Shown here: piece after piece, positions 2,851 to 60,546 of the stretch | Numbering within the stretch: the first letter of the stretch is position 1 | How the letters are laid out: every line of letters starts with the position of its first letter | DNA from: Podarcis muralis | Lineage: Eukaryota | Direction: 5' to 3' | Length of the DNA stretch: 64,000 nucleotides | Assembly: GCF_964188315.1 (NCBI RefSeq) | Contig: NC_135662.1 | Location: forward strand, 39,122,001 to 39,186,000 | Notes under the pieces: generated by a model | What the model was told of the DNA's origin: nothing | Database searches by the model: none | Seen by the model: only the letters and a program-made list of their open reading frames with translations | Position numbers and translations under genes: made by a program

Positions 2851-4489
2851 TTACTCAGTGTTGTAAACTGCAAATCTTGGCCAACTGTTTCTGTGGAGAT
2901 GTCGGAGGAACAATAATTCATCATCGTGAAGCTAATGCTAAACTTGAGCACTGTGGCAACCTGGTCCCTTAAACAGCCTTCTTCCACCTTCCAACTGACT
3001 GCAGGAATATCTGTAGAGTGAATCATCCTCACCATGGTGTATCATAGTTTTCTTCCTGCATTTTTGGCTTTGTGTTAATGGGTAAAAAACCCCAAACAGT
3101 TTTGCGTGTTAGATCTGTTTCACATCATTCAGAACAATATCTCTGCAGTTCCATCCTTTGCTACTGGCATGCCTGTTCATTAGAAAAATCTGGCCATATC
3201 TTGTTTCTGTAACCCTGAGTGTCTCTTTTCTTTTCTTTCTACATTTCCCTTGATGTGTCTTTAAATCTCAGCAAATGGCAAATATAAAACTCTTATCAAG
3301 CTGGTGATCACCTTTTGGATCACACCTCATTCGTAGTTGGCTTTAAGTAAGCCTAGGCAGCTCAACAGCAATTGTAAAAATGCAATGAATTCACCTCTAA
3401 AGCTTTATATGGTACTGCTGTCCAATCACTATGCCAACCAGGTTTCTTGGGTAGCTGGACTCTTAAGTGAGAATTCCTGCACTTCCCACGGAAATCAGTG
3501 AAGCCAGTTTCCTTCAGTTTCTCAGTTTCCCCAACTTGATTTCCACCAACTCTTCTTCCACATTAGTTTACAATTTTTAAAAAACCTACACAAGTTATAT
3601 GCATTTATGTGAACATGTCTTCAGATGTATGCCTTGTAATATGAAATTTAGTATACAAAATTCCACCAACTAGAATATAATTTTATTATAACATTTATTA
3701 GATGCCTTTTCTAGCCACAAGCAACTCAATGCATCTTTACAAAAAGAAAACAAAAAACATACGTTCATTAAACTCAGGGGGAAACATTAAAAACATTAAA
3801 GAAGAAAGAAAACATTAAAAACAACCCCTCTCCTTGAATGCAAAGGATGATATCCAATGTTAGTCATATTCAGAGCAGACTCAGTTAAATCAATGCACAG
3901 TAACCAAAATAACATTGATTTTCCTGTCTCTGCTCTGAGTATGATTGTGATACCACAAAGAAGGAAAACTAAATTTGCACTGAATATGCATATATGAAAA
4001 CAATTATTTTCTTATTAAGTGCCAAGGAATAGTCTGTTCTCCCCAGCTGTCTTGAAGAAAAAAGAAGCAAGGAGATTTAAATTTTAAAAGTCCTTAGGAA
4101 AAACACAGTGTTAAAGTTTGACTCTCCTTCTCCATTATCGCTCTTTGTCAGTGCTTCCCAAGTACCAAAATAATTTTTAATGCAATACCATATTTAAATG
4201 TACCACTATGTTTTTATTTCTAAAAGCCTCAGTTATGTCATTCAGTGTAAAATGCTCAGTGACGTTAATTCTGTTTGTTTCAGGTTATTCAAATATTTCC
4301 TTTAGGCTGTTTTTGTGCAACTTCTATTTCAGATTAAATATTATCAAACTACAGTATACAGGTAGTGCTTTGAACTCTGCTGCCATCTGTTGGTGACATT
4401 TAGGAGATGCTGTATAAGAAACATTCTAAACAGGCTGGCTATGTATCCTGCTCAGCTGCAATACAAAAATTTCAGACTGAATTAGTCTC

Positions 4490-5214
4490 TGCTAGGCGCT
4501 GCTGACCTATAAAGCCTTAAACAGTTCTGGACCATAATACCTTAAAGACCACTTCTCCCCCTATGAACCAATCTGGATGCTATGATCATCTCCTGAAGCC
4601 CTTCTTTGTGTGCCTCTTCCATGAGGCCTTTTCTGCAGTGACTCCCCATTTGCTGAATGCTCTCCCCAGGGAGACTCGCCTGGAGCCATTGTTACCTATC
4701 TTAGAACATTCCTCTTTTCCCAGGCCTTTGGCTAATTAAGCAGTCTATGAGGAGGAGCCCTGAGTGCTCACTGGAAGGACAGATCCTGAAGGTGAGGCTC
4801 CAGTACTTTGGCCACCTCATGAGAAGAGAAGACTCCCTGGAGAAGACCCTGATGTTGGGAAAGATTGAGGGCACAAGGAGAAGGGGACAATAGAGGACGA
4901 GATGGTTGGACAGTGTTCGTGAAGCTACAAACATGAGCCTGACCAAACTGCGGGAGGCAGTGGAAGACAGGAGTGCCTGGCGTGCTCTGGTCCATGGGGT
5001 CATGAAGAGTTGGACACGACTAAGCGACTAAACAACAGCAGCAACAGCAGCAGCAGCAGCAGCAGCAGCAACAACGTGGTCTCTTCGATTGGGGGTGGCG
5101 GTGGCATTGTTTTGTTTGTTATTATGTACAGTATTTTTTGTGTTTTTATACTGAAAACTGCCCTGTGACCCTCTCATGAAGGGTGACATAGAAATTTAAT
5201 AAATAATAATAATA
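4490..5214 (+). mobile_element. L2 LINE 3' fragment interrupted by a Bov-B piece
   Basis: ggccttttctgcagtgactcccc...ccaggcctttggc before 4750; L2-type end ctgccctgtgacc...gaagggtgacatagaaatttaataaataataat after 5076. Confidence 0.6.
4756..5075 (+). mobile_element. Bov-B (RTE) LINE 3' fragment with CAA/CAG tail
   Basis: Closely matches the 3' ~290 nt of the long copy (57894-58178); tail reads CAA(CAG)2CAA(CAG)8(CAA)2. Confidence 0.92.
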
Positions 5215-14585: not shown

Positions 14586-15584
14586 TTAGGAGGGAGTTCC
14601 ACATTCAACCAACTTTCGGAAACTCTTCCGGAAAGTGTCATCTAAAAAGGCGTAAAGGAACGGGTTGAGGCAACTGTTAGCATAGCTCAGGGTGGTGATG
14701 AAATAGGAGATTCCAATTATCAGAGGGGTTTGTGGGATGTCTGTGGTGAGGGCGACCACAGTGCTCAGGTGATAAGGGGTCCAACAGAACAGGCAAACGC
14801 CCAAGATGATCAGCACCATGATTGTCACTTTCTTTTTCGCTTTGTCCAAAGCTTTAGCATTGCTGTGGAGCCGCATACGCCTCAGCTTGAAGAGCATGGT
14901 GCTGTACAGGATGCAGATGGTGGACACTGGGATGGCAAAGCCCAAGATAAGAGTGTAGAGGCGGCTCACTTTCCACCAGAAGCCCTCTGGGCTGGGAAAG
15001 ACAAAGACACACTGGGATCGTCCCTCTTCAGTGTGTATCTTGGCAAAGATACTGAACGGCAATATGATGATGGTGACAAAAACCCAGACACAGAGACTCA
15101 CTGTCTTGGCAGCCCTGTAGGTGCGATAGCACATTTTCTTGGATTTGATGGTGGCAACCACCACCAGGTATCGGTCGATGCTCATGACTGTGAGAAAATA
15201 AATGCTTGAGAAAGTGTTGTACTGGTCGATGGAGATGATCAGCTTGCACATGAATTCGCCAAAGGGCCACTGAAGCAGCAGGTAGTCTGCTATGTTGATA
15301 GGAAGTACCAACGTGAAGAGCTCATCAGCAATGGCCAGGTTCAGAATGAAAATGTTGGTGACGGTCTTCATTTTGGGAGCTTTTAGGATGACATAAATGA
15401 CTGCAGAGTTTCCAGTGAGCCCGACAGCACAGATCACAGAGTAGATGATGGGTACGGCAATGTAGAAGTTAGGAATCAGCTGTGGAGCTGTCATGTTGTG
15501 CCCATGTTGTCCTGACCCATAGCAACCAAAATCCACATCAGTACAGGAAGCATTGAAGTTGGGCTGGGAAGAAAAATTATCCAT
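14586..15584 (-). CDS. NPBWR1: Neuropeptide B/W receptor type 1 (GPR7), class A GPCR, 332 aa, uninterrupted CDS
   Basis: Seven hydrophobic helices, DRY, CWTP and NPFLY motifs, N-terminal sequons (NFS, NAS, NMT). Segments ADELFTLVLPINIAD, DQYNTFSS and PYHLSTVVALTTD match NPBWR1 rather than NPBWR2 as recalled. First ATG 15584 has strong Kozak context (acaATGg); the track start 15599 is a TTG. Confidence 0.93.
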   Translation of the reverse strand: MDNFSSQPNFNASCTDVDFGCYGSGQHGHNMTAPQLIPNFYIAVPIIYSVICAVGLTGNSAVIYVILKAPKMKTVTNIFILNLAIADELFTLVLPINIADYLLLQWPFGEFMCKLIISIDQYNTFSSIYFLTVMSIDRYLVVVATIKSKKMCYRTYRAAKTVSLCVWVFVTIIILPFSIFAKIHTEEGRSQCVFVFPSPEGFWWKVSRLYTLILGFAIPVSTICILYSTMLFKLRRMRLHSNAKALDKAKKKVTIMVLIILGVCLFCWTPYHLSTVVALTTDIPQTPLIIGISYFITTLSYANSCLNPFLYAFLDDTFRKSFRKLVECGTPS

Positions 15585-15903
15585 TGTCTGCAGTGACAAA
15601 TATCAGTCTCCTCTGTTAAATATTGTTTAGTTTAGATGAGAGTACTAGATGCAGTCCTTTTACAAAACCTTATGAGTGAGATCAGTCTATTTGAAATACA
15701 TTACATTAGAGATTTCCTTCAGGTTCTTATTTCTTGAAGCTGCTTGATTCAAGCTAATTTTCAGGTAAATTGCCTCTCCTAGCACTTTCTTTTCTATTTA
15801 CTGAAACCAGTAAAGCAGTCTTTCAGTTAAATAGTTAAATAGTTTTTGCATCCTGCTTCCTTTTTATCTTTCCACTTTGGAGCACTCTGACTGTACAGAT
15901 CTC

Positions 15904-35641: not shown

Positions 35642-35716
35642 CAGTACTTTTTTTCTTTAAAAAAAAATGTTTAGGGGTATGCATCCCCCTGCATCCCCCC
35701 AGAAAAAAAAGCACTG
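35642..35716. mobile_element. 75-bp minimal hAT MITE
   Basis: TIR cagtactttttt / aaaaaagcactg; TSD gatctcgt / gatctagt. Confidence 0.85.
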
Positions 35717-37522: not shown

Positions 37523-37748
37523 NNNNNNNNNNNNNNNNNNNNNNNNNNNNNNNNNNNNNNNNNNNNNNNNNNNNNNNNNNNNNNNNNNNNNNNNNNNNNN
37601 NNNNNNNNNNNNNNNNNNNNNNNNNNNNNNNNNNNNNNNNNNNNNNNNNNNNNNNNNNNNNNNNNNNNNNNNNNNNNNNNNNNNNNNNNNNNNNNNNNNN
37701 NNNNNNNNNNNNNNNNNNNNNNNNNNNNNNNNNNNNNNNNNNNNNNNN
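37523..37748. other. Assembly gap (226 N)
   Basis: Run of n directly after an L2 3' end (37430-37522). Confidence 1.
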
Positions 37749-37904: not shown

Positions 37905-38078
37905 TAGTGCTTTTTTCTTTAAAAAATGTTTAGGGATACTCTCCTTTTGACTCAAGAAAACCACCATTTTATAGATCAGTTTTGGGGGAAAACATACAGT
38001 AAATGGACAAAAGTACAAAGATTCACAAAATGTTTAGGGGTATGCATCCCCCTGCATCCCCCCAGAAAAAAAGCACTG
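37905..38078. mobile_element. 174-bp hAT MITE, longer sister of 35642-35716
   Basis: TIR tagtgctttttt / aaaaaagcactg; TSD gagttaaa / gagttaag. Confidence 0.87.
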
Positions 38079-51816: not shown

Positions 51817-52065
51817 GAAGAAGAAGAGTTTGGATTTGATATCCCGCTTTATCACTACCCGAAGGAGTCTCAAAGCGGCTAACATTCTCCTTTCCCTTCC
51901 TCCCCCACAACAAACACTCTGTGAGGTGAGTGAGGCTGAGAGACTTCTCTGAAATGTGACTAGCCCAAGGTCACCCAGGAGTTGCATGTGGAGGAGCGGA
52001 GACGCGAACCCGGTTCCCCAGATTACAAGTCCACCGCTCTTAACCACTACACCACACTGGCTCTC
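51817..52065 (-). mobile_element. tRNA-headed CORE-like SINE with (CTT)n tail
   Basis: A box agccagtgtggtgtagtggttaaga, core gtgaccttgggctagtcac; 9-bp TSD cagactgta (51808-51816, 52068-52076). Confidence 0.9.
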
Positions 52066-53365: not shown

Positions 53366-56109
53366 GTCTAAATCTTGGCATATCATTTGGCAAAATCATC
53401 TCATCATCTGTGTCATAGGTTCCTTACCACATCCTGCTAACAAATAGATGTTTATACCCATTCTGAAATCCATTTTTTAAAGGATAACACAAAAGCACTT
53501 TTAAAAAAAGAACATATGGTGCTCTTGGAGTTATTGAAAATATTAATTATCTATGTATTTTAATTTCCAGCAAACACCAGGCCTGCTAATCTTTGTGAAT
53601 AACTGAGCTATCACTTCTGTCAAAAGAATGATAAATGTTTTCATTTGAATCAATTTGTTTCCAGAAACTCTTGATGACTTTGTCTGTGGTTTAATCAATA
53701 CCAGCAAATCCTATTTGCTTACAGCAAATTATTTCTTATTCATAGTACAACATGTCTTTCCTGCTCTAATTTGTCAGGTAGGAATCGACACAAACTCTTA
53801 AAATGGACTAGATAGAAAAAATGGTGAGTTTACTCATTGAGTATCATTTCTCCTAGCTTGTATATAAGATCCATGTTTGTGAAACGTGTCATTGTGTTAG
53901 CAATGTAACTTTAAAGCAGAGGGGACTGCTTATGTTATCACTCATGTATCACATAAGAAAAGCTCTCCAAATATTACCAAATATGTTGTATTGCAGAGAT
54001 GAGGAGCCTGCAGCTCTCCAGAAATTGCTAGGATACAATTCCCATCATTCCTGACAATTAGCCCCGCTGACTGAGATGGATGGAAGTTGGAGTTCAAAAA
54101 CATCAAGAGGACCATGGTTCCCCAATTCTGTTGTATTTTATCACCATCAGAATAAAAATACAATTAGAGAGGAACAAATGAAATTAACTTGCAACCACAA
54201 GTGAGATCTAATCTGGATTACAATGGGATAAAATCACACTCTGTGTATGGTCCCATAGTGTGATGATCAGAGTTCAAAAGTGTGTCATATAAGCCTGTCT
54301 ATGGCAATTATGAAATTAGCACCCTTCAGTGACTTGCTGTGCAATTCCATGTGCATTCACTTGGAAATGCATAATGGGGTGAACAAAACATAAAATTCAG
54401 TTTGGATAAATTCAATTCAGAGGCTGTCCAATTTGGGTCTGAATTCAAATCCTCATTTAAGAAAGCTGAAACTTTGTGCTTCCTTCATTCACTAACGTGA
54501 GGAAATTGAAAAAAATGTCTTTTTGACAGAATTGGATGAAATTTGCAGGCATGGGACACTTCCCAACTTCAGCAACTATACTGTTCTTGAGAATCCTATT
54601 CACAAGAGAGTAATGACCCGTGGAGTTGGACACTCTAAAATCAGTTAAAGGGTATGAAAATGCAGGTGAGGAAGGATAGGTGCTGGATTTGCCCTCAGAA
54701 GACACTATAGTGCTAGAAATGTCTGTGCAAGAAGAATCCCAGCAGCGAGTCTGGCCTGGGGAAATCACTTTGTCCTATCCTTTGGACTCCAGTGACTCTG
54801 TTTCTCAGTCCTCACCAGATCTGAAGACTTTGCAATCCTACAGGAGCCAGCATTGGGAAATAGCCTAACAAGGTTAAACCCCAGCTGTTTCTTCAGAGTG
54901 AGGTGGAACTGGGAACACCAAATCTGAAAGCAGACCTGTTTAAAGTGACTGTGGTGGATAACTACAACAGTCATTTTCCCTGTATAGATCCAATGTAAGA
55001 ATGTGTTTCTTAGTAACTGGATCTCTTCCTATATTCTATGACTACTTGTAGACTTGAGTATACACAGGAAATGCAGTAAACTTAGTGGACATCCACATGG
55101 GAAAGTTCTGGGTTATGTCACAGATACTCTTCATTTAAATTTAGTTACATTGCATACATAAAGAATGTGATTTATTAGCATTTTCCAGTATTCAATAGCC
55201 TTATTGAATTAGCATTCCAGATTAATATTTCATTTTCCAGGGTTGCCTGGAACGTCTTGCAGTTTTTGTATAGAGCTAGAAAACAGCGGTTCAGTGTATA
55301 TGAGCATTTGGTAAAGCGGCAATCAATTTTTAATTAATGTTTTAGCAGCTGTGACCTAAAACAGAATTATTAACTTGTGTTTTATAAACATTTTTTTTTA
55401 AAAAAAGAATTTAATATGATGAATATAAACAAACATTTGTACCAACATAGTGAGGGTGATGACATTTTGGATTTTTATTTTTTTAGTGACTGAAGTGTAT
55501 TGTTCTTCTGAACACTTAAAAGCCATTTAAATAGAGTTTTTGTGTTTAATAGCATTGTTTTCAAATAAGGCATAAGTTGTTGTTTTGCCTTCACTGTCTG
55601 ACTAGTATTTCTTTCTCATTATTTAAAATATTGAAACTAATACATACAGTACACATTAATAATATTGCTAAATGCTTAACACTATGAACTGTTAAAAGGC
55701 TATACATTCCTATACCTTCCTAACGTGGAAAGAAATGCAATATTTTGTCCCCTGAGTTCCTCTTCAGCAATCTGTCCACAGTATCTCAAGTTCCACAACC
55801 ACTGACAAACAAACAACACAGGAAGTCACCTTATACTGAGTCAGACCATTTGTCAGAAACCAGGCAGAGGAGTACAGCTCTGATGAGGAATGGTGGGAAC
55901 CTCCCCCTCCCCCTGCTCCTGACCAGGATCCTGAAGCTGCCCAGGAGCAGTGGAGCAGTATAGATTTGGAACAGTGGTTTAAAGAGGGGCATAGTTCTGA
56001 AGACAAATGTTGGGAAGAACTGGGGAGTGAACAGCAAGGTGAAGAAGAACTGGAAGAGAGAGAGCTAACAGACTCTCTCTCTCGATTGAAAGTGTCGAGC
56101 CTATCGGTT

Positions 56110-58381
56110 GAAGAAGAAGAAGAGGAGGAGAAGGAGGAGGAGGAGATTTGATATCCCGCTTTATCACTACCCTAAGTGCCTGAAGAATTATGGATGGAGG
56201 CTCATAACATTGTACAGGAGGCAGCAACGAAAACCATCCCAATGAAAAGGAAATGCAAGAAAGCAAAGTGGCTGTCCAATGAGGCCTTACAAATAGCAGA
56301 GGAGAGAAGGCAAGCAAAATGCGAGGGAGATAGTGAAAGATACAGGAAATTGAATGCAGATTTCCAAAGAATAGCAAGGAGAGACAAGAAGGCCTTCTTA
56401 AACGAGCAATGCAAAGAAATAGAGGAAAACAACAGAATGGGAAGAACCAGAGATCTGTTCAAGAAAATTGGAGATATGAAAGGAACATTTCGTACAAAGA
56501 TTACCATAATAAAGGACAAAAGTGGTAAGGACCACTTACCAAAAGTGGTAAGAAGCAGAAGACATCAAGAAGAGGTGGCAAGAATACACAGAGGAATTAT
56601 ACCAGAAAGATATGGATGTCTCGTACACCCCAGGTAGTGTGGTTGCTGACCTTGAGCCAGACATCCTGGAAAGTGAAGTCAAATGGGCCTTAGAAAGCAC
56701 TGCTAATAACAAGGCCAGTGGAAGTGATGGTATTCCAGCTGAACTATTTAAAATTTTAAAAGATGATGCTGTTAAGGTGCTACACTCAATATGCCAGCAA
56801 ATTTGGAAAACTCAGCAGTGGCCAGAAGATTGGAGAAGATCAGTCTACATCCCAATCTCAAAGAAGGGCAGTGCCAAAGAATGCTCCAACTACCGCACAA
56901 TTGCACTCATTTCACACGCTAGCAAGGTTATGCTTAAAATTCTACAAGGAAGGCTCAAGCAGTATGTGGATCGAGAACTCCCAGAAGTGCCAGCTGGATT
57001 TAGAAGAGGCAGAGGAACCAGAGACCAAATTGCAAACATGTGCTGGATTATGGAGAAAGCTAGAGAGTTCCAGTAAGACATCTACTTCTGCTTCATTGAC
57101 TATGCAAAAGCCTTTGACTGTGTCGACCACAACAAACTATGGCAAGTTCTTAAAGAAATGGGAGTGCCTGATCACCTCATCTGTCTCCTGAGAAATCGCT
57201 ATGTGGGACAAGAAGCTACAGTTAGAACTGGATATGGAACAACTGATTGGTTCAAAATTGGAAAAGGAGTACGACAAGGCTGTATTTTGTCTCCCTGCTT
57301 ATTTAATTTATATGCAGAATGCATCATGCGAAAGGCTGGGCTGGATGAATCCCAAACTGGAATTAAGATTGCCGGAAGAAATATCAACAACCTCAGATAT
57401 GCAGATGATACAACCTTGATGGCAGAAAGTGAGGAGGAGTTAAAGAACCTTTTAATGAGGGTGAAAGAGGAGAGCGCAAAATATGGTCTGAAGCTCAATA
57501 TCAAAAAAACGAAGATCATGGCCACTGGTCCCATCACCTCCTGGCAAATAGAAGGGGAAGAAATGGAGGCAGTGAGAGATTTTACTTTCTTGGGCTCCAT
57601 GATCACTGCAGATGGTGACAGCAGCCACGAAATTAAAAGACGCCTGCTTCTTGGGAGAAGGGCAATGACAGGCCTAGACAGCATCTTGAGAAGTAGAGAC
57701 GTCACCTTGCCAACAAAGGTCCGTATAGTTAAAGCCATGGTTTTCCCAGTAGTGATGTATGGAAGTGAGAGCTGGACCATAAAGAAGGCTGATCGCCGAA
57801 GAATTGATGCTTTTGAATTATGGTGCTGGAGGAGACTCTTGAGAGTCCCATGGACTGCAAGAAGATCAAACGCATCCATTCTTAAGGAAATCAGCCCTGA
57901 GTGCTCACTGGAAGGACAGATCGTGAAGGTGAGGCTCCAGTACTTTGGCCACCTCATGAGAAGAGAAGACTCCCTGGAGAAGACACTGATGCTGGGAAAG
58001 ATGGAGGGCACAAGGAGAAGGGGGCGACAGAGGACGAGATGGTTGGATAGTGTTTTCGAGGTTACCAGCATGAGTTTGACCAAACTGCGGGAGGTAGTGG
58101 AGAACAGAGGTGCCTGGCGTGCTCTGGTCCATGGGGTCACGAAGAGTCGGACACGACTAAATGACTAAACAACAACAAAAGGAGTCTCAAAGCTGCGAAC
58201 AAGCTCCTTTTCCCTTCCTCCCCCACAACAAACACTCTGTGAGGTGAGTGAGGCTGAGAGACTTCAGAGAAGTATGACTAGCCCAAGATCACCCAGCAGC
58301 TGCATGTGGAGGAGCGGGGAATCAAACCCAGTTCACCAGATTATGAGTCCACCGCTCTTAACCACACCACCACACTGGCTC
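56110..58381 (-). mobile_element. CORE-like SINE split by Bov-B
   Basis: 56110-56176 and 58179-58381 rejoin to match the intact copy at 51817-52065 across ctaccc(t/g)aaggagtctc. Confidence 0.9.
56177..58178 (+). mobile_element. 5'-truncated Bov-B (RTE clade) LINE with a nearly intact reverse transcriptase region
   Basis: ORF pieces 56176-56637, 56612-57076 and 57158-58168 with YADD, FIDYAKAFD and VRQGCILSP motifs; frameshift at ~56534-56551, in-frame TAA at 57074-57076, (CAA)n tail, 3-bp aag duplication. Confidence 0.96.
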
Positions 58382-60546
58382 ATGTAGAGCAGATAAGGTG
58401 GTGATACAAAAAGCACGGTGGTTGTGAGAGCAGGTTACAAGCAGCAGAAGTGAGTAGGGGGGAAGTGGGTGGGAGCCATAATTGGGAGCACCCTTCCTCT
58501 GAGATGGACTCTTTGTTCTTGAGCTGTGATCATTAAAATCTCTTTATATGGTAAGAGACTATTTTTGCTTTCTTCTATTTATCCACGGCCAAAGGGAGGG
58601 AGGAAGTCTCTCTCCCGAAGCATGACACCATTGGACCATTTAGCTCAGTATTGTCTACACTGACTGGCAGTGGCTCTCCAGGATTTCAGGCAGGGGTCTT
58701 CCCCAACCCTACCTGGTGATCCATCTGAGCTATGGCCCTTCTCTATGTTGTTATAAGATTTTTCATAGTTGTCAACCATTCTGATCTTGGACATCAATTA
58801 TTTCCAATGCAGAGGGCAAGAGTTTGAAATCTAAATTAAAGCTATAAAATGAGGCACTTGTTTTACTTAATGCCTGTGATACGAAATGCTATACAACTGT
58901 AATTCAGCTTGATGTATCAACCAATTCACTATGTAGATATTTCAGCCCTCAGCTATGATTGACTGCTTAGTCATAAGCAAAATAAATGGGAACTATGAGC
59001 TGGATTAACTTGTAGAGCATATTCATTAAGATGTTTGGATAGAAATATAAAAGTTATATTTCAGCTAACTGTTGCATACCCAAACGAAAGCAGACCACAA
59101 AAGGACATTGTGATGAATTATAGTGTGACTGTATGATAAAGTGCGATAAAAAAATACCCTGATGTATCTGGGACACTAGTATTTGAAAGATATAAACATT
59201 AAGCCTGAAGGTTGAAATTACTTAGAAGATAGCCCAGAATATACCTTCCAATATTATCAGACCTGACACTACTGCCAAATAGGACAAGTACAGACAAATT
59301 GCCTAAGCCAGACCTTACAAACACCATTAGCACATTTAATGGATGCAGCTTCTTTGTTGTGCTGTAGGCTGAAACACAGCTGAACTTTCCAACTAATCAT
59401 TTCAGATAACCAAGCCTGCAGCAGAAAGCAACTAGAGAAAAGAAAGGGATTTACTTGTAAATGCCGTTCTGGGGAAAGAGACAATGTCCTTCTATTCAAA
59501 TAGACCATAGGGATTCCCAAATGGCTGAAGCCAGCTTTAATTGCTAGTATGACAATTACATTTGCCTTTCAAAGTTTTACATAGCCCCAATTGTATAGAG
59601 AATTCAAAACAGCTCATCCTAGGAGGAGAGGTTAGAAAGGGTTGTGTTGGTAGTGTGGAAAAGCTATCAATAGGGGAGGGCTGTGTCATTCACAAGATAT
59701 GGTGAATGGAGGACCTATATTTTGGGGGTCCTGAAACCTGAACTGTTATGGGGGACCCTTTGCAACTAACAAACTGTAATGGGTGACCATTGTGATCTTC
59801 TTCAATGGGGTTGTTCCATGACAGAGCCTCAAATCTTTACAACATCTGTGGTATTGTTGAAATATATACAACAACAACAAAATCAATTTGAGTCATGCAA
59901 CTCAAATTGTGTCAACTACACTGAAAGTTTTTAAGCAATGTGAACCAAAATTATTTTTGGGCCCCTCCAGGATTAGGGCTTCTGAAGCTGAAGTTTCATT
60001 AGTTTCATAGTAGATCCGTCCTGGCATATGGTACTGGATTGTGACCTGGATAGTATTATGTAAAATTCCAACTTAATGGTTTTACACTTGTAAGTAGCCC
60101 ATGGAAATTGACAACCATGTTATCCTCAAGGCTTATCTGTTAAATGGAGATACCGATTTACTTCAGACAGTTGTTGAACTGTCTGAAGAAAGAGTTAATG
60201 ATTCTGGAGCATCTAACACATTCCAAGAACTATGCAAATTGGGATCTAGCCAACAAAGTTAAATGCTTTATTAAGTCTCATAGGCATTAACTGTAGTGAG
60301 TTAAAACACATTCCTAATTATCCCATTGAACTCAATGGGCCTTCAAGCTTGGGCTGCATTGCATGCATATTAATACTTCTAAAGTTGCTTAGTTTCTTTT
60401 GGTTTGCACCTATGAATAAAGCCAGCTTTAAAACTAGATGGCAGCCTCATAAGTCATACATCTTACAATGCAACATGATGTAGCCAACATTGGAGATTTT
60501 AAATTATATGTTTGTGCAATTATGAAATCTGAAAATTATATATACA

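What the first reader, a model, noticed from the sequence alone, without database searches (positions are those of the whole stretch)
55815..58742. Four-layer nested retroelement: tRNA-Ala SINE > solo LTR > CORE-like SINE > Bov-B LINE
Seen: (1) SINE halves at 55815-55850 and 58633-58742 rejoin to the family sequence. (2) They are split by a TGTCA...TGACA element with a ccatt TSD and ATTAAA. (3) Inside it a minus-strand SINE (56110-58381) matches the intact copy at 51817-52065. (4) That SINE is split at ctaccctaag|gagtctc by a 2-kb Bov-B with an aag duplication. No TSD was found for layer 3. Established: solo LTRs form by LTR-LTR recombination. Inference: a direct relative chronology of four families at one site, with an LTR family possibly missing from libraries.
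Basis: partly seen in the sequence, partly recalled or inferred. Interest (0 to 1): 0.7.

Follow-up and report, generated by a model that had tools for sequence, protein, structure and literature searches.

The report
Four nested jumping genes in lizard
Four mobile DNA elements sit one inside the other at this spot in a lizard genome (an old tRNA-derived SINE, a lone end-repeat of a Gypsy retrotransposon, a Squam3B SINE and a young Bov-B LINE), a real but likely ordinary and functionless pile-up that records their order of arrival.

Summary
The nest is real at the stated coordinates. Layer 1 is a tRNA-Ala-headed SINE (probably Squam2) with CCATT duplicated. Layer 2 is a ~510-bp repeat: 88 of 98 other copies are unbroken across the layer-3 site, and 52 of 54 testable copies have 5-bp duplications. 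I traced its parent: three decayed copies lie behind a polypurine tract at the end of a chromodomain Ty3/Gypsy pol. So it is a solo LTR of a Sushi-type chromovirus, not an endogenous retrovirus; no copy with both LTRs was found. Layer 3 is Squam3B, inserted with 1-7 nt lost and no duplication, as published for this family. Layer 4 is a 5'-truncated Bov-B, 98% like young copies, with a 3-nt duplication and the Tn-TA signature. The order recurs at other sites and was never reversed, but nesting is common: 15 of 98 LTR copies are interrupted, and nest-based chronology is an established method. One loose end: 5 of 98 LTR copies sit in the layer-1 SINE family (about 1 expected), but my replication set was inconclusive. 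The scan noted a different, also ordinary, nest elsewhere in this genome; it held no look-alike of this LTR.

The parts
55815..55850 (-). Layer 1, 3' end and tail of a tRNA-Ala-headed SINE (probably Squam2); last 5 nt are the left copy of the CCATT duplication (55846-55850)
   Evidence: loose ends
55851..56109 (+). Layer 2, 5' half of the solo LTR (starts TGTCA); one frame is open throughout and codes an acidic stretch, the likely relic tail of pol
56110..56176 (-). Layer 3, (CTT)n-type tail and 3' end of Squam3B; AAG at 56174-56176 is the left copy of the Bov-B duplication; TTT at 56160-56162 and T at 56173 form the Tn-TA signature
56177..58178 (+). Layer 4, 5'-truncated Bov-B (RTE LINE), 2002 nt, RT domain, (CAA)n tail; broken by one stop (57074-57076) and a 13-nt net insertion near 56534-56546
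58179..58381 (-). Layer 3, body and head of Squam3B (right AAG at 58179-58181)
58382..58627 (+). Layer 2, 3' half of the solo LTR (ATTAAA at ~58533, ends CATGACA)
58628..58632 (.). Right copy of the 5-bp CCATT target-site duplication
58633..58743 (-). Layer 1, body and head of the SINE, with a ~45-nt deletion near 58720
51817..52065 (-). Unbroken Squam3B copy used for comparison (not part of the nest)

Best explanation
This is a four-layer nest of independent insertions, SINE > Gypsy solo LTR > Squam3B SINE > Bov-B LINE, and it is likely neutral debris. Step 1 (order shown, mechanism inferred): an old tRNA-Ala-headed SINE was already in place. Step 2 (duplication shown, mechanism inferred): a chromodomain Ty3/Gypsy element of the Sushi type integrated into it with a 5-bp staggered cut, and LTR-LTR recombination later removed the internal region and left one ~510-bp LTR. 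Step 3 (junction shown, mechanism inferred): a Squam3B RNA was copied in by an L2-type enzyme, its (CTT)n tail likely priming on a short matching purine run in the LTR; 1-7 target nt were lost, so there is no duplication. Step 4 (shown as junctions, mechanism from the literature): a young Bov-B cut at a Tn-TA site in the Squam3B 3' end, was copied for 2.0 of ~3.2 kb and joined at a 2-nt microhomology, leaving a 3-nt duplication.
For: Both halves of each outer layer are contiguous in natural unbroken copies. LTR family: TG..CA ends, 5-bp duplications in 52 of 54, ends fit the Sushi att motifs TGTYANR / CNTNACA (PMC3601003 passage). Parent: L174 carries gag-PR-RT-RH-IN (Pfam), then a purine tract, then an LTR 81%/72% identical to the two halves; L199 likewise 83%/74%; in L201 one open frame runs from the chromodomain through the tract into the LTR. 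Young chromodomain Gypsy elements of this genome have paired TGTCA LTRs and 5-bp duplications (3 of 3 full-length candidates fetched). Order recurs: 5 of 98 LTR copies lie in the layer-1 family, 0 of 15 inserts in LTR copies are of that family, while Squam3B (1), Bov-B (1) and Sauria SINE (5) are found inside LTR copies and no LTR copy inside them. Likeness to relatives rises inwards: layer 1 79-84% (unselected copies), layer 2 86% mean pairwise, layer 3 85-94%, layer 4 91-95% unselected and 98% to best hits. Another Squam3B insert in this LTR family (L062) also lacks a duplication and deletes target.
Against: No copy of this family with both LTRs was found (10-20 kb fetched upstream of L174, L199, L201), so the 5'-LTR role is shown only for a sister family (L216). 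The chromodomain hit is below Pfam's cut-off (23 bits vs 25.1). The Bov-B duplication (3 nt) is shorter than the usual 7-15 bp for RTE LINEs (PMC6007223) and partly ambiguous. The Squam2 name is recalled, not confirmed (one search found no sequence). Neutrality was not tested.
Confidence: 0.88

Rival explanations
1. Same nest, but the Gypsy element did not land in the SINE by chance: its integrase favoured this tRNA-derived SINE family (as Ty3 favours Pol III genes, recalled) or the chromatin on it.
For: 5 of 98 other LTR copies abut or split the layer-1 family (L008, L013, L033, L071, L233) against a matched null of 1.06% (1.04 expected, binomial P=0.004); the window is a sixth case.
Against: The pattern was found post hoc among 5 families tested. 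The 31 fresh copies gave 1 case, under my pre-set threshold of 2 (note; P=0.28). 93 of 98 copies are not in such a SINE. Duplications are GC-rich (59% vs 46% in flanks) and the SINE is 50% GC, and younger inserts dilute the background.
Confidence: 0.1
2. Layer 2 is a non-autonomous element that spread as a ~510-bp unit (single-LTR or MITE-like), not a recombination product of a full-length insertion at this site.
For: All 98 copies examined look solo and none is paired; only three pol-linked copies were found, none with a 5' LTR.
Against: Inverted ends are only 5 bp, too short for a MITE; the sequence sits behind a purine tract at the end of Gypsy pol in three places; an old family (86% mean identity) is expected to survive mostly as solo LTRs (established knowledge).
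Confidence: 0.05
3. Layer 2 is the LTR of an endogenous retrovirus or a BEL/Pao element.
For: TG..CA ends and 5-bp duplications are shared by ERV3 and BEL (recalled).
Against: The linked internal region has Retrotrans_gag/Ty3 capsid, RT_RNaseH, Integrase_H2C2, SH3_Tf2-1 and a chromodomain in Gypsy order, and no env ORF between chromodomain and LTR.
Confidence: 0.02
4. The nest is an assembly chimera or moved as one block.
For: No single contig or read spans the whole stretch.
Against: Each layer has its own junction signature; a contig from another individual (X9 record 23, 58359-58650, 4 differences) crosses two junctions and one from a second species (X13 record 15, 58361-58506) crosses the Squam3B/LTR junction, though with only 21-23 letters on the short side, under the tool's 31-letter rule.
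Confidence: 0.02

Closest known systems
Transposon clusters used for relative dating (TCF/IMA, PMC1914374; TinT, PMC3014933)
   Same: Younger elements interrupt older ones and the order is read from the nest; the paper's Figure 1 legend describes a five-deep human nest (L2 > L1MB3 > Tigger1 > L1PA8 > AluY; passages seen).
   Different: Lizard families, one site plus 98 LTR copies, not a genome-wide matrix. TinT paper seen as a search listing only.
Sushi-type (vertebrate) chromovirus, Ty3/Gypsy, Metaviridae
   Same: Domain order, chromodomain before the purine tract, att motifs TGTYANR / CNTNACA, polyadenylation-like signal near the 3' end.
   Different: The pol frame runs on into the LTR as an acidic tail; my search found this in print only for plant chromoviruses (PMC3605345 passages). 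No family name could be assigned.
Squam3B SINE (PMC7983390)
   Same: Head and 3' end agree by eye with the supplement's Squam3B rows, (CTT)n tail, very low TSD rate, 16,000-92,000 copies in lacertids (text parts 1-2 of 4 and supplement hits seen).
   Different: This copy is split by Bov-B and has a degenerate tail.
Bov-B LINE of squamates (PMC13295347; PMC6007223)
   Same: RT 98% identical to a wall-lizard protein cluster and 72-80% to bovid and monitor-lizard proteins; (CAA)n tail, duplication starting with A, T stretch upstream (passages).
   Different: 5'-truncated, frame broken, duplication only 3 nt.
Squam2 SINE (named in PMC10702118)
   Same: tRNA-derived, ~190 nt, present in lacertids; head of an unbroken copy hits Rfam tRNA with a UGC (Ala) anticodon loop.
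   Different: Sequence identity to Squam2 is recalled, not shown; the paper's text supplements held none of the motifs.

Membership tests
Solo LTR | TG...CA ends with a 4-6 bp target duplication around a single repeat | tested here: met
   CCATT both sides; 52 of 54 copies <=1 mismatch
Solo LTR | Same sequence serves as 3' LTR behind a polypurine tract | tested here: met
   L174, L199, and (first 57 nt) L201
Solo LTR | Same sequence found paired around one internal region | tested here: inconclusive
   None found; the three pol-linked copies are 5'-truncated or rearranged; a sister family has a 5' LTR before gag
Ty3/Gypsy chromovirus (Sushi type) | gag-PR-RT-RH-IN order | tested here: met
   Pfam on L174 ORFs
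Ty3/Gypsy chromovirus (Sushi type) | Chromodomain at the integrase C-terminus | tested here: met
   SH3_Tf2-1 over cut-off in L199 and L201; Chromo E=7.7e-5 in L201, 23 bits, just under the 25.1 cut-off
Ty3/Gypsy chromovirus (Sushi type) | att motifs TGTYANR and CNTNACA | tested here: met
   TGTCAGA at 55851 and CATGACA ending 58627 against Table 3 of PMC3601003
Ty3/Gypsy chromovirus (Sushi type) | RT phylogeny inside the chromovirus clade | not tested
   No reference RT set on hand; no tree of RT built
Endogenous retrovirus | Retroviral gag/pol and env, tRNA primer site | tested here: not met
   Gypsy domains, purine tract directly after the chromodomain
Squam3B SINE | Sequence match to the published subfamily, (CTT)n tail | tested here: met
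   Supplement rows of PMC7983390 compared by eye; no formal alignment
Squam3B SINE | Very low rate of target duplication | tested here: met
   None here or in L062; the copy at 51817 does show a 9-nt repeat
Bov-B LINE | RTE-type RT close to both squamate and ruminant copies | tested here: met
Bov-B LINE | (CAA)n tail, A-starting duplication, Tn-TA signature | tested here: met
   raw-read joints show 3 letters fitting either side
Squam2 SINE | tRNA-derived head | tested here: met
   Rfam tRNA in 2 of 3 unbroken copies, 38.8 and 26.4 bits
Squam2 SINE | Match to the published family sequence | not testable with these tools
   no sequence in the held texts; name recalled
LTR family absent from repeat libraries | No match in Repbase, Dfam or a de novo library | not testable with these tools
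   No such library is offered

The most novel reading that the evidence does not exclude
An unnamed lizard chromovirus family whose pol protein ended in an acidic tail coded inside its own LTR preferentially integrated into a tRNA-Ala-derived SINE family, a vertebrate parallel of Ty3-style Pol III targeting; the nest would then be a product of targeting, not luck.
Probability: 0.1. Interest if true: 0.55.

Novelty: new member of a known kind. Interest (0 to 1): 0.2.

Why it matters
As it stands, little: a clean teaching example and a ready set of four presence/absence markers for lacertid phylogeny, plus the classification of a few-hundred-copy solo-LTR family as a chromodomain Gypsy. It would matter more if the excess of LTR copies inside one SINE family held up genome-wide, since my search found no report of SINE- or Pol III-directed integration for vertebrate chromoviruses (one unrelated listing).

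Tried and rejected
Purine-tract patterns before the LTR start: one search gave 0 hits (pattern used the window's minority variant), one chance hit (L061); one search gave 49 rows, no more than its control (61), of which 30 loci plus 5 hand-picked places were checked and one (L174) held the LTR. Shared flanks among copies as a sign of an internal region: none that held up. The LTR-coded acidic frame found no longer protein (weak test) and no Pfam family. None of 30 top SH3_Tf2-1 loci carried this LTR. A gag search gave only 2 other places, neither with this LTR. A TGACA upstream of L174 gag looked like a 5'-LTR remnant but matches gag-coding sequence of the sister element L216. Squam2 could not be confirmed from supplements. 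ARAGORN finds no tRNA gene in the window. Reads and contigs could not show alleles lacking Bov-B: joints that skip a layer come from thousands of unbroken paralogues. Insertion bias towards the layer-1 SINE was not confirmed in the 31-copy replication set. L063 and L069 were dropped as non-family hits and duplicate loci were merged before the 98-copy counts.

Full report
Setting. The window lies on contig C8 of a 1.52-Gb genome in 185 contigs. The Bov-B reverse transcriptase is 98% identical to a wall-lizard protein cluster and the inner SINE is of the lacertid Squam3B type, so the host is a lacertid lizard. The only long non-repeat frame in the window is a receptor gene 40 kb away.

Layer 1. 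The pieces at 55815-55850 and 58633-~58743 belong to a minus-strand SINE family with 2297 first-look candidates. In 19 natural copies the two pieces abut and the split pentamer occurs once; in the window CCATT occurs on both sides of layer 2. This copy has also lost about 45 nt near 58720, including the B-box region. I recall this family as Squam2 but could not confirm it: PMC10702118 (passages seen) names it, its three text supplements held none of my motifs, and the four papers that mention it were otherwise seen as a listing.

Layer 2 is contiguous elsewhere. I searched each half on its own and a 22-nt start motif (60 exact hits, none paired within 15 kb). After merging duplicates and dropping two non-family hits I held 98 other copies: 88 are unbroken across the layer-3 site and 15 carry inserts elsewhere or there. 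Of 54 copies aligned to both ends, 26 have a perfect 5-bp duplication and 26 one mismatch; shuffled pairs give 1.5 on average. Mean pairwise identity among 22 copies is 85.8%. Eleven of the 39 copies found by the right half also carry the exact 22-mer, which puts the family at roughly 200 copies or more (my count; likely a lower bound).

The parent of layer 2. One frame is open through the whole left half and codes an acidic stretch. Chromodomain Gypsy elements of this genome run their pol frame through the purine tract into an LTR that starts TGTCA in that same frame, and three full-length candidates had paired LTRs with 5-bp duplications. A pattern for a G run before the LTR start led to L174: gag, protease, RT, RNase H, integrase zinc finger (Pfam), a chromodomain-like stretch, a purine tract, then an LTR 81% and 72% identical to the window's halves. 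A search with its chromodomain region gave 20 places; L199 has the same arrangement with 83% and 74% identity, and L201 has an open frame from chromodomain into a shortened LTR. All three are decayed, and none has a 5' LTR within the 10-20 kb fetched upstream. The ends match the Sushi att motifs in PMC3601003 (passages). Layer 2 is thus a solo LTR of a chromodomain Ty3/Gypsy family; formation by LTR-LTR recombination is established knowledge, not shown here. Read-through of pol into the 3' LTR is in print for plant chromoviruses (PMC3605345 passages); two searches found no report for lizards, on listings only.

Layer 3. The SINE at 56110-56176 and 58179-58381 matches the unbroken copy at 51817 and, by eye, the Squam3B rows in the supplement of PMC7983390 (text parts 1-2 of 4 read). 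[quoted passage not shown] Unbroken LTR copies hold 7 nt between the window's halves (32 of 50 rows); three letters at the tail side and two at the head side fit both SINE and target, so 1-7 nt were lost. An independent Squam3B insert in L062 behaves alike. Tail-target priming is my inference.

Layer 4. The 2002-nt insert is Bov-B: RT 72-80% identical to bovid and monitor-lizard proteins, 97.7-98.4% identical to the 14 best-matching genomic copies, which extend about 1.2 kb further 5'. It ends in (CAA)n. AAG flanks both sides; in 14 of 14 longer copies the two letters before the truncation point are also AG, so part of the left AAG may be microhomology. A TTT 12-14 nt upstream and a T just before the A fit the Tn-TA signature described for lizard Bov-B (PMC13295347 passages; PMC6007223 abstract and section 15). 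The duplication is shorter than the usual 7-15 bp.

Does the order hold beyond this site? Yes, on small numbers. Five of 98 LTR copies lie in the layer-1 family and none of the 15 inserts within LTR copies is of that family; Squam3B (1), Bov-B (1), Sauria SINE (5) and a hAT-like element (1, label mine) occur inside LTR copies, 7 inserts are unidentified, and no LTR copy was flagged inside Squam3B or Bov-B. Identity to relatives rises from the outer to the inner layer, with the caveat that some sets were chosen as best hits. Contigs from another individual and from a second species cross the Squam3B/LTR junction with 4 and 8 differences, far fewer than any paralogue, which suggests layers 1-3 predate that split; the short sides are 21-23 letters, below the tool's bridging rule, and nothing was learned about Bov-B alleles.

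How unusual? With 15% of this LTR family interrupted, and the parent L174 itself holding two LINEs, four-deep nests should number at least in the hundreds in such a genome (rough inference). Reading age from nests is the TCF/IMA method, whose first figure shows a five-deep human nest (PMC1914374 passages).

The loose end. Four of the first 67 copies lay in the layer-1 SINE family. I set a threshold of 2 before looking at 31 fresh copies and found 1. Pooled, 5 of 98 against 1.04 expected gives P=0.004, but this is post hoc, one of five families tested, and GC-rich target sites could explain part of it. I give targeting 10%.

Verdict. Observation confirmed, interpretation supported and sharpened, biology ordinary. 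New member of a known kind; interest 0.2.

Noticed in passing
window 14586-15602 (-): Single-exon 338-codon rhodopsin-family receptor frame (Pfam 7tm_1); looks like a neuropeptide B/W receptor (name recalled). About 40 kb from the nest.
   Followed up: partly
L174 (G000:C20:23530000-23539999): The decayed parent element is itself a nest: a Bov-B (3781-5081) and a CR1-like LINE (1554-2609, opposite strand; name recalled) sit inside its pol.
   Followed up: partly
L212, L213, L214: Young chromodomain Gypsy elements with 96-100% identical LTR pairs; dozens of places share a 1374-codon open frame, so Gypsy activity is very recent. Their pol frames also run through the purine tract into the LTR, and no TGG-type tRNA primer site follows the 5' LTR.
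   Followed up: partly
G000:C20: 22 of the 30 top SH3_Tf2-1 loci lie on this 30-Mb contig; likely the W chromosome (inference).
   Followed up: no
window 56534-56546: A 13-nt net insertion in Bov-B built from a short inverted and direct copy of neighbouring sequence, like a template switch; absent from young copies.
   Followed up: partly
L008, L013, L033, L071, L233: LTR copies inserted in or against the layer-1 SINE family, 5 of 98 against about 1 expected.
   Followed up: partly
L023/L024 (G000:C2:91.47 Mb): Tandem duplication of about 3075 bp that includes an interrupted copy of the LTR family.
   Followed up: no
L216 4384-6884: Array of 153-bp units, 100% identical, inside a sister Gypsy element.
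   Followed up: no
L199 106-1031: Broken intronless frames resembling signal peptide peptidase (HM13; name recalled), a likely processed pseudogene.
   Followed up: no
window 35664-35709 and 38027-38072: A 46-nt exact direct repeat on either side of the N stretch at 37523-37748.
   Followed up: no
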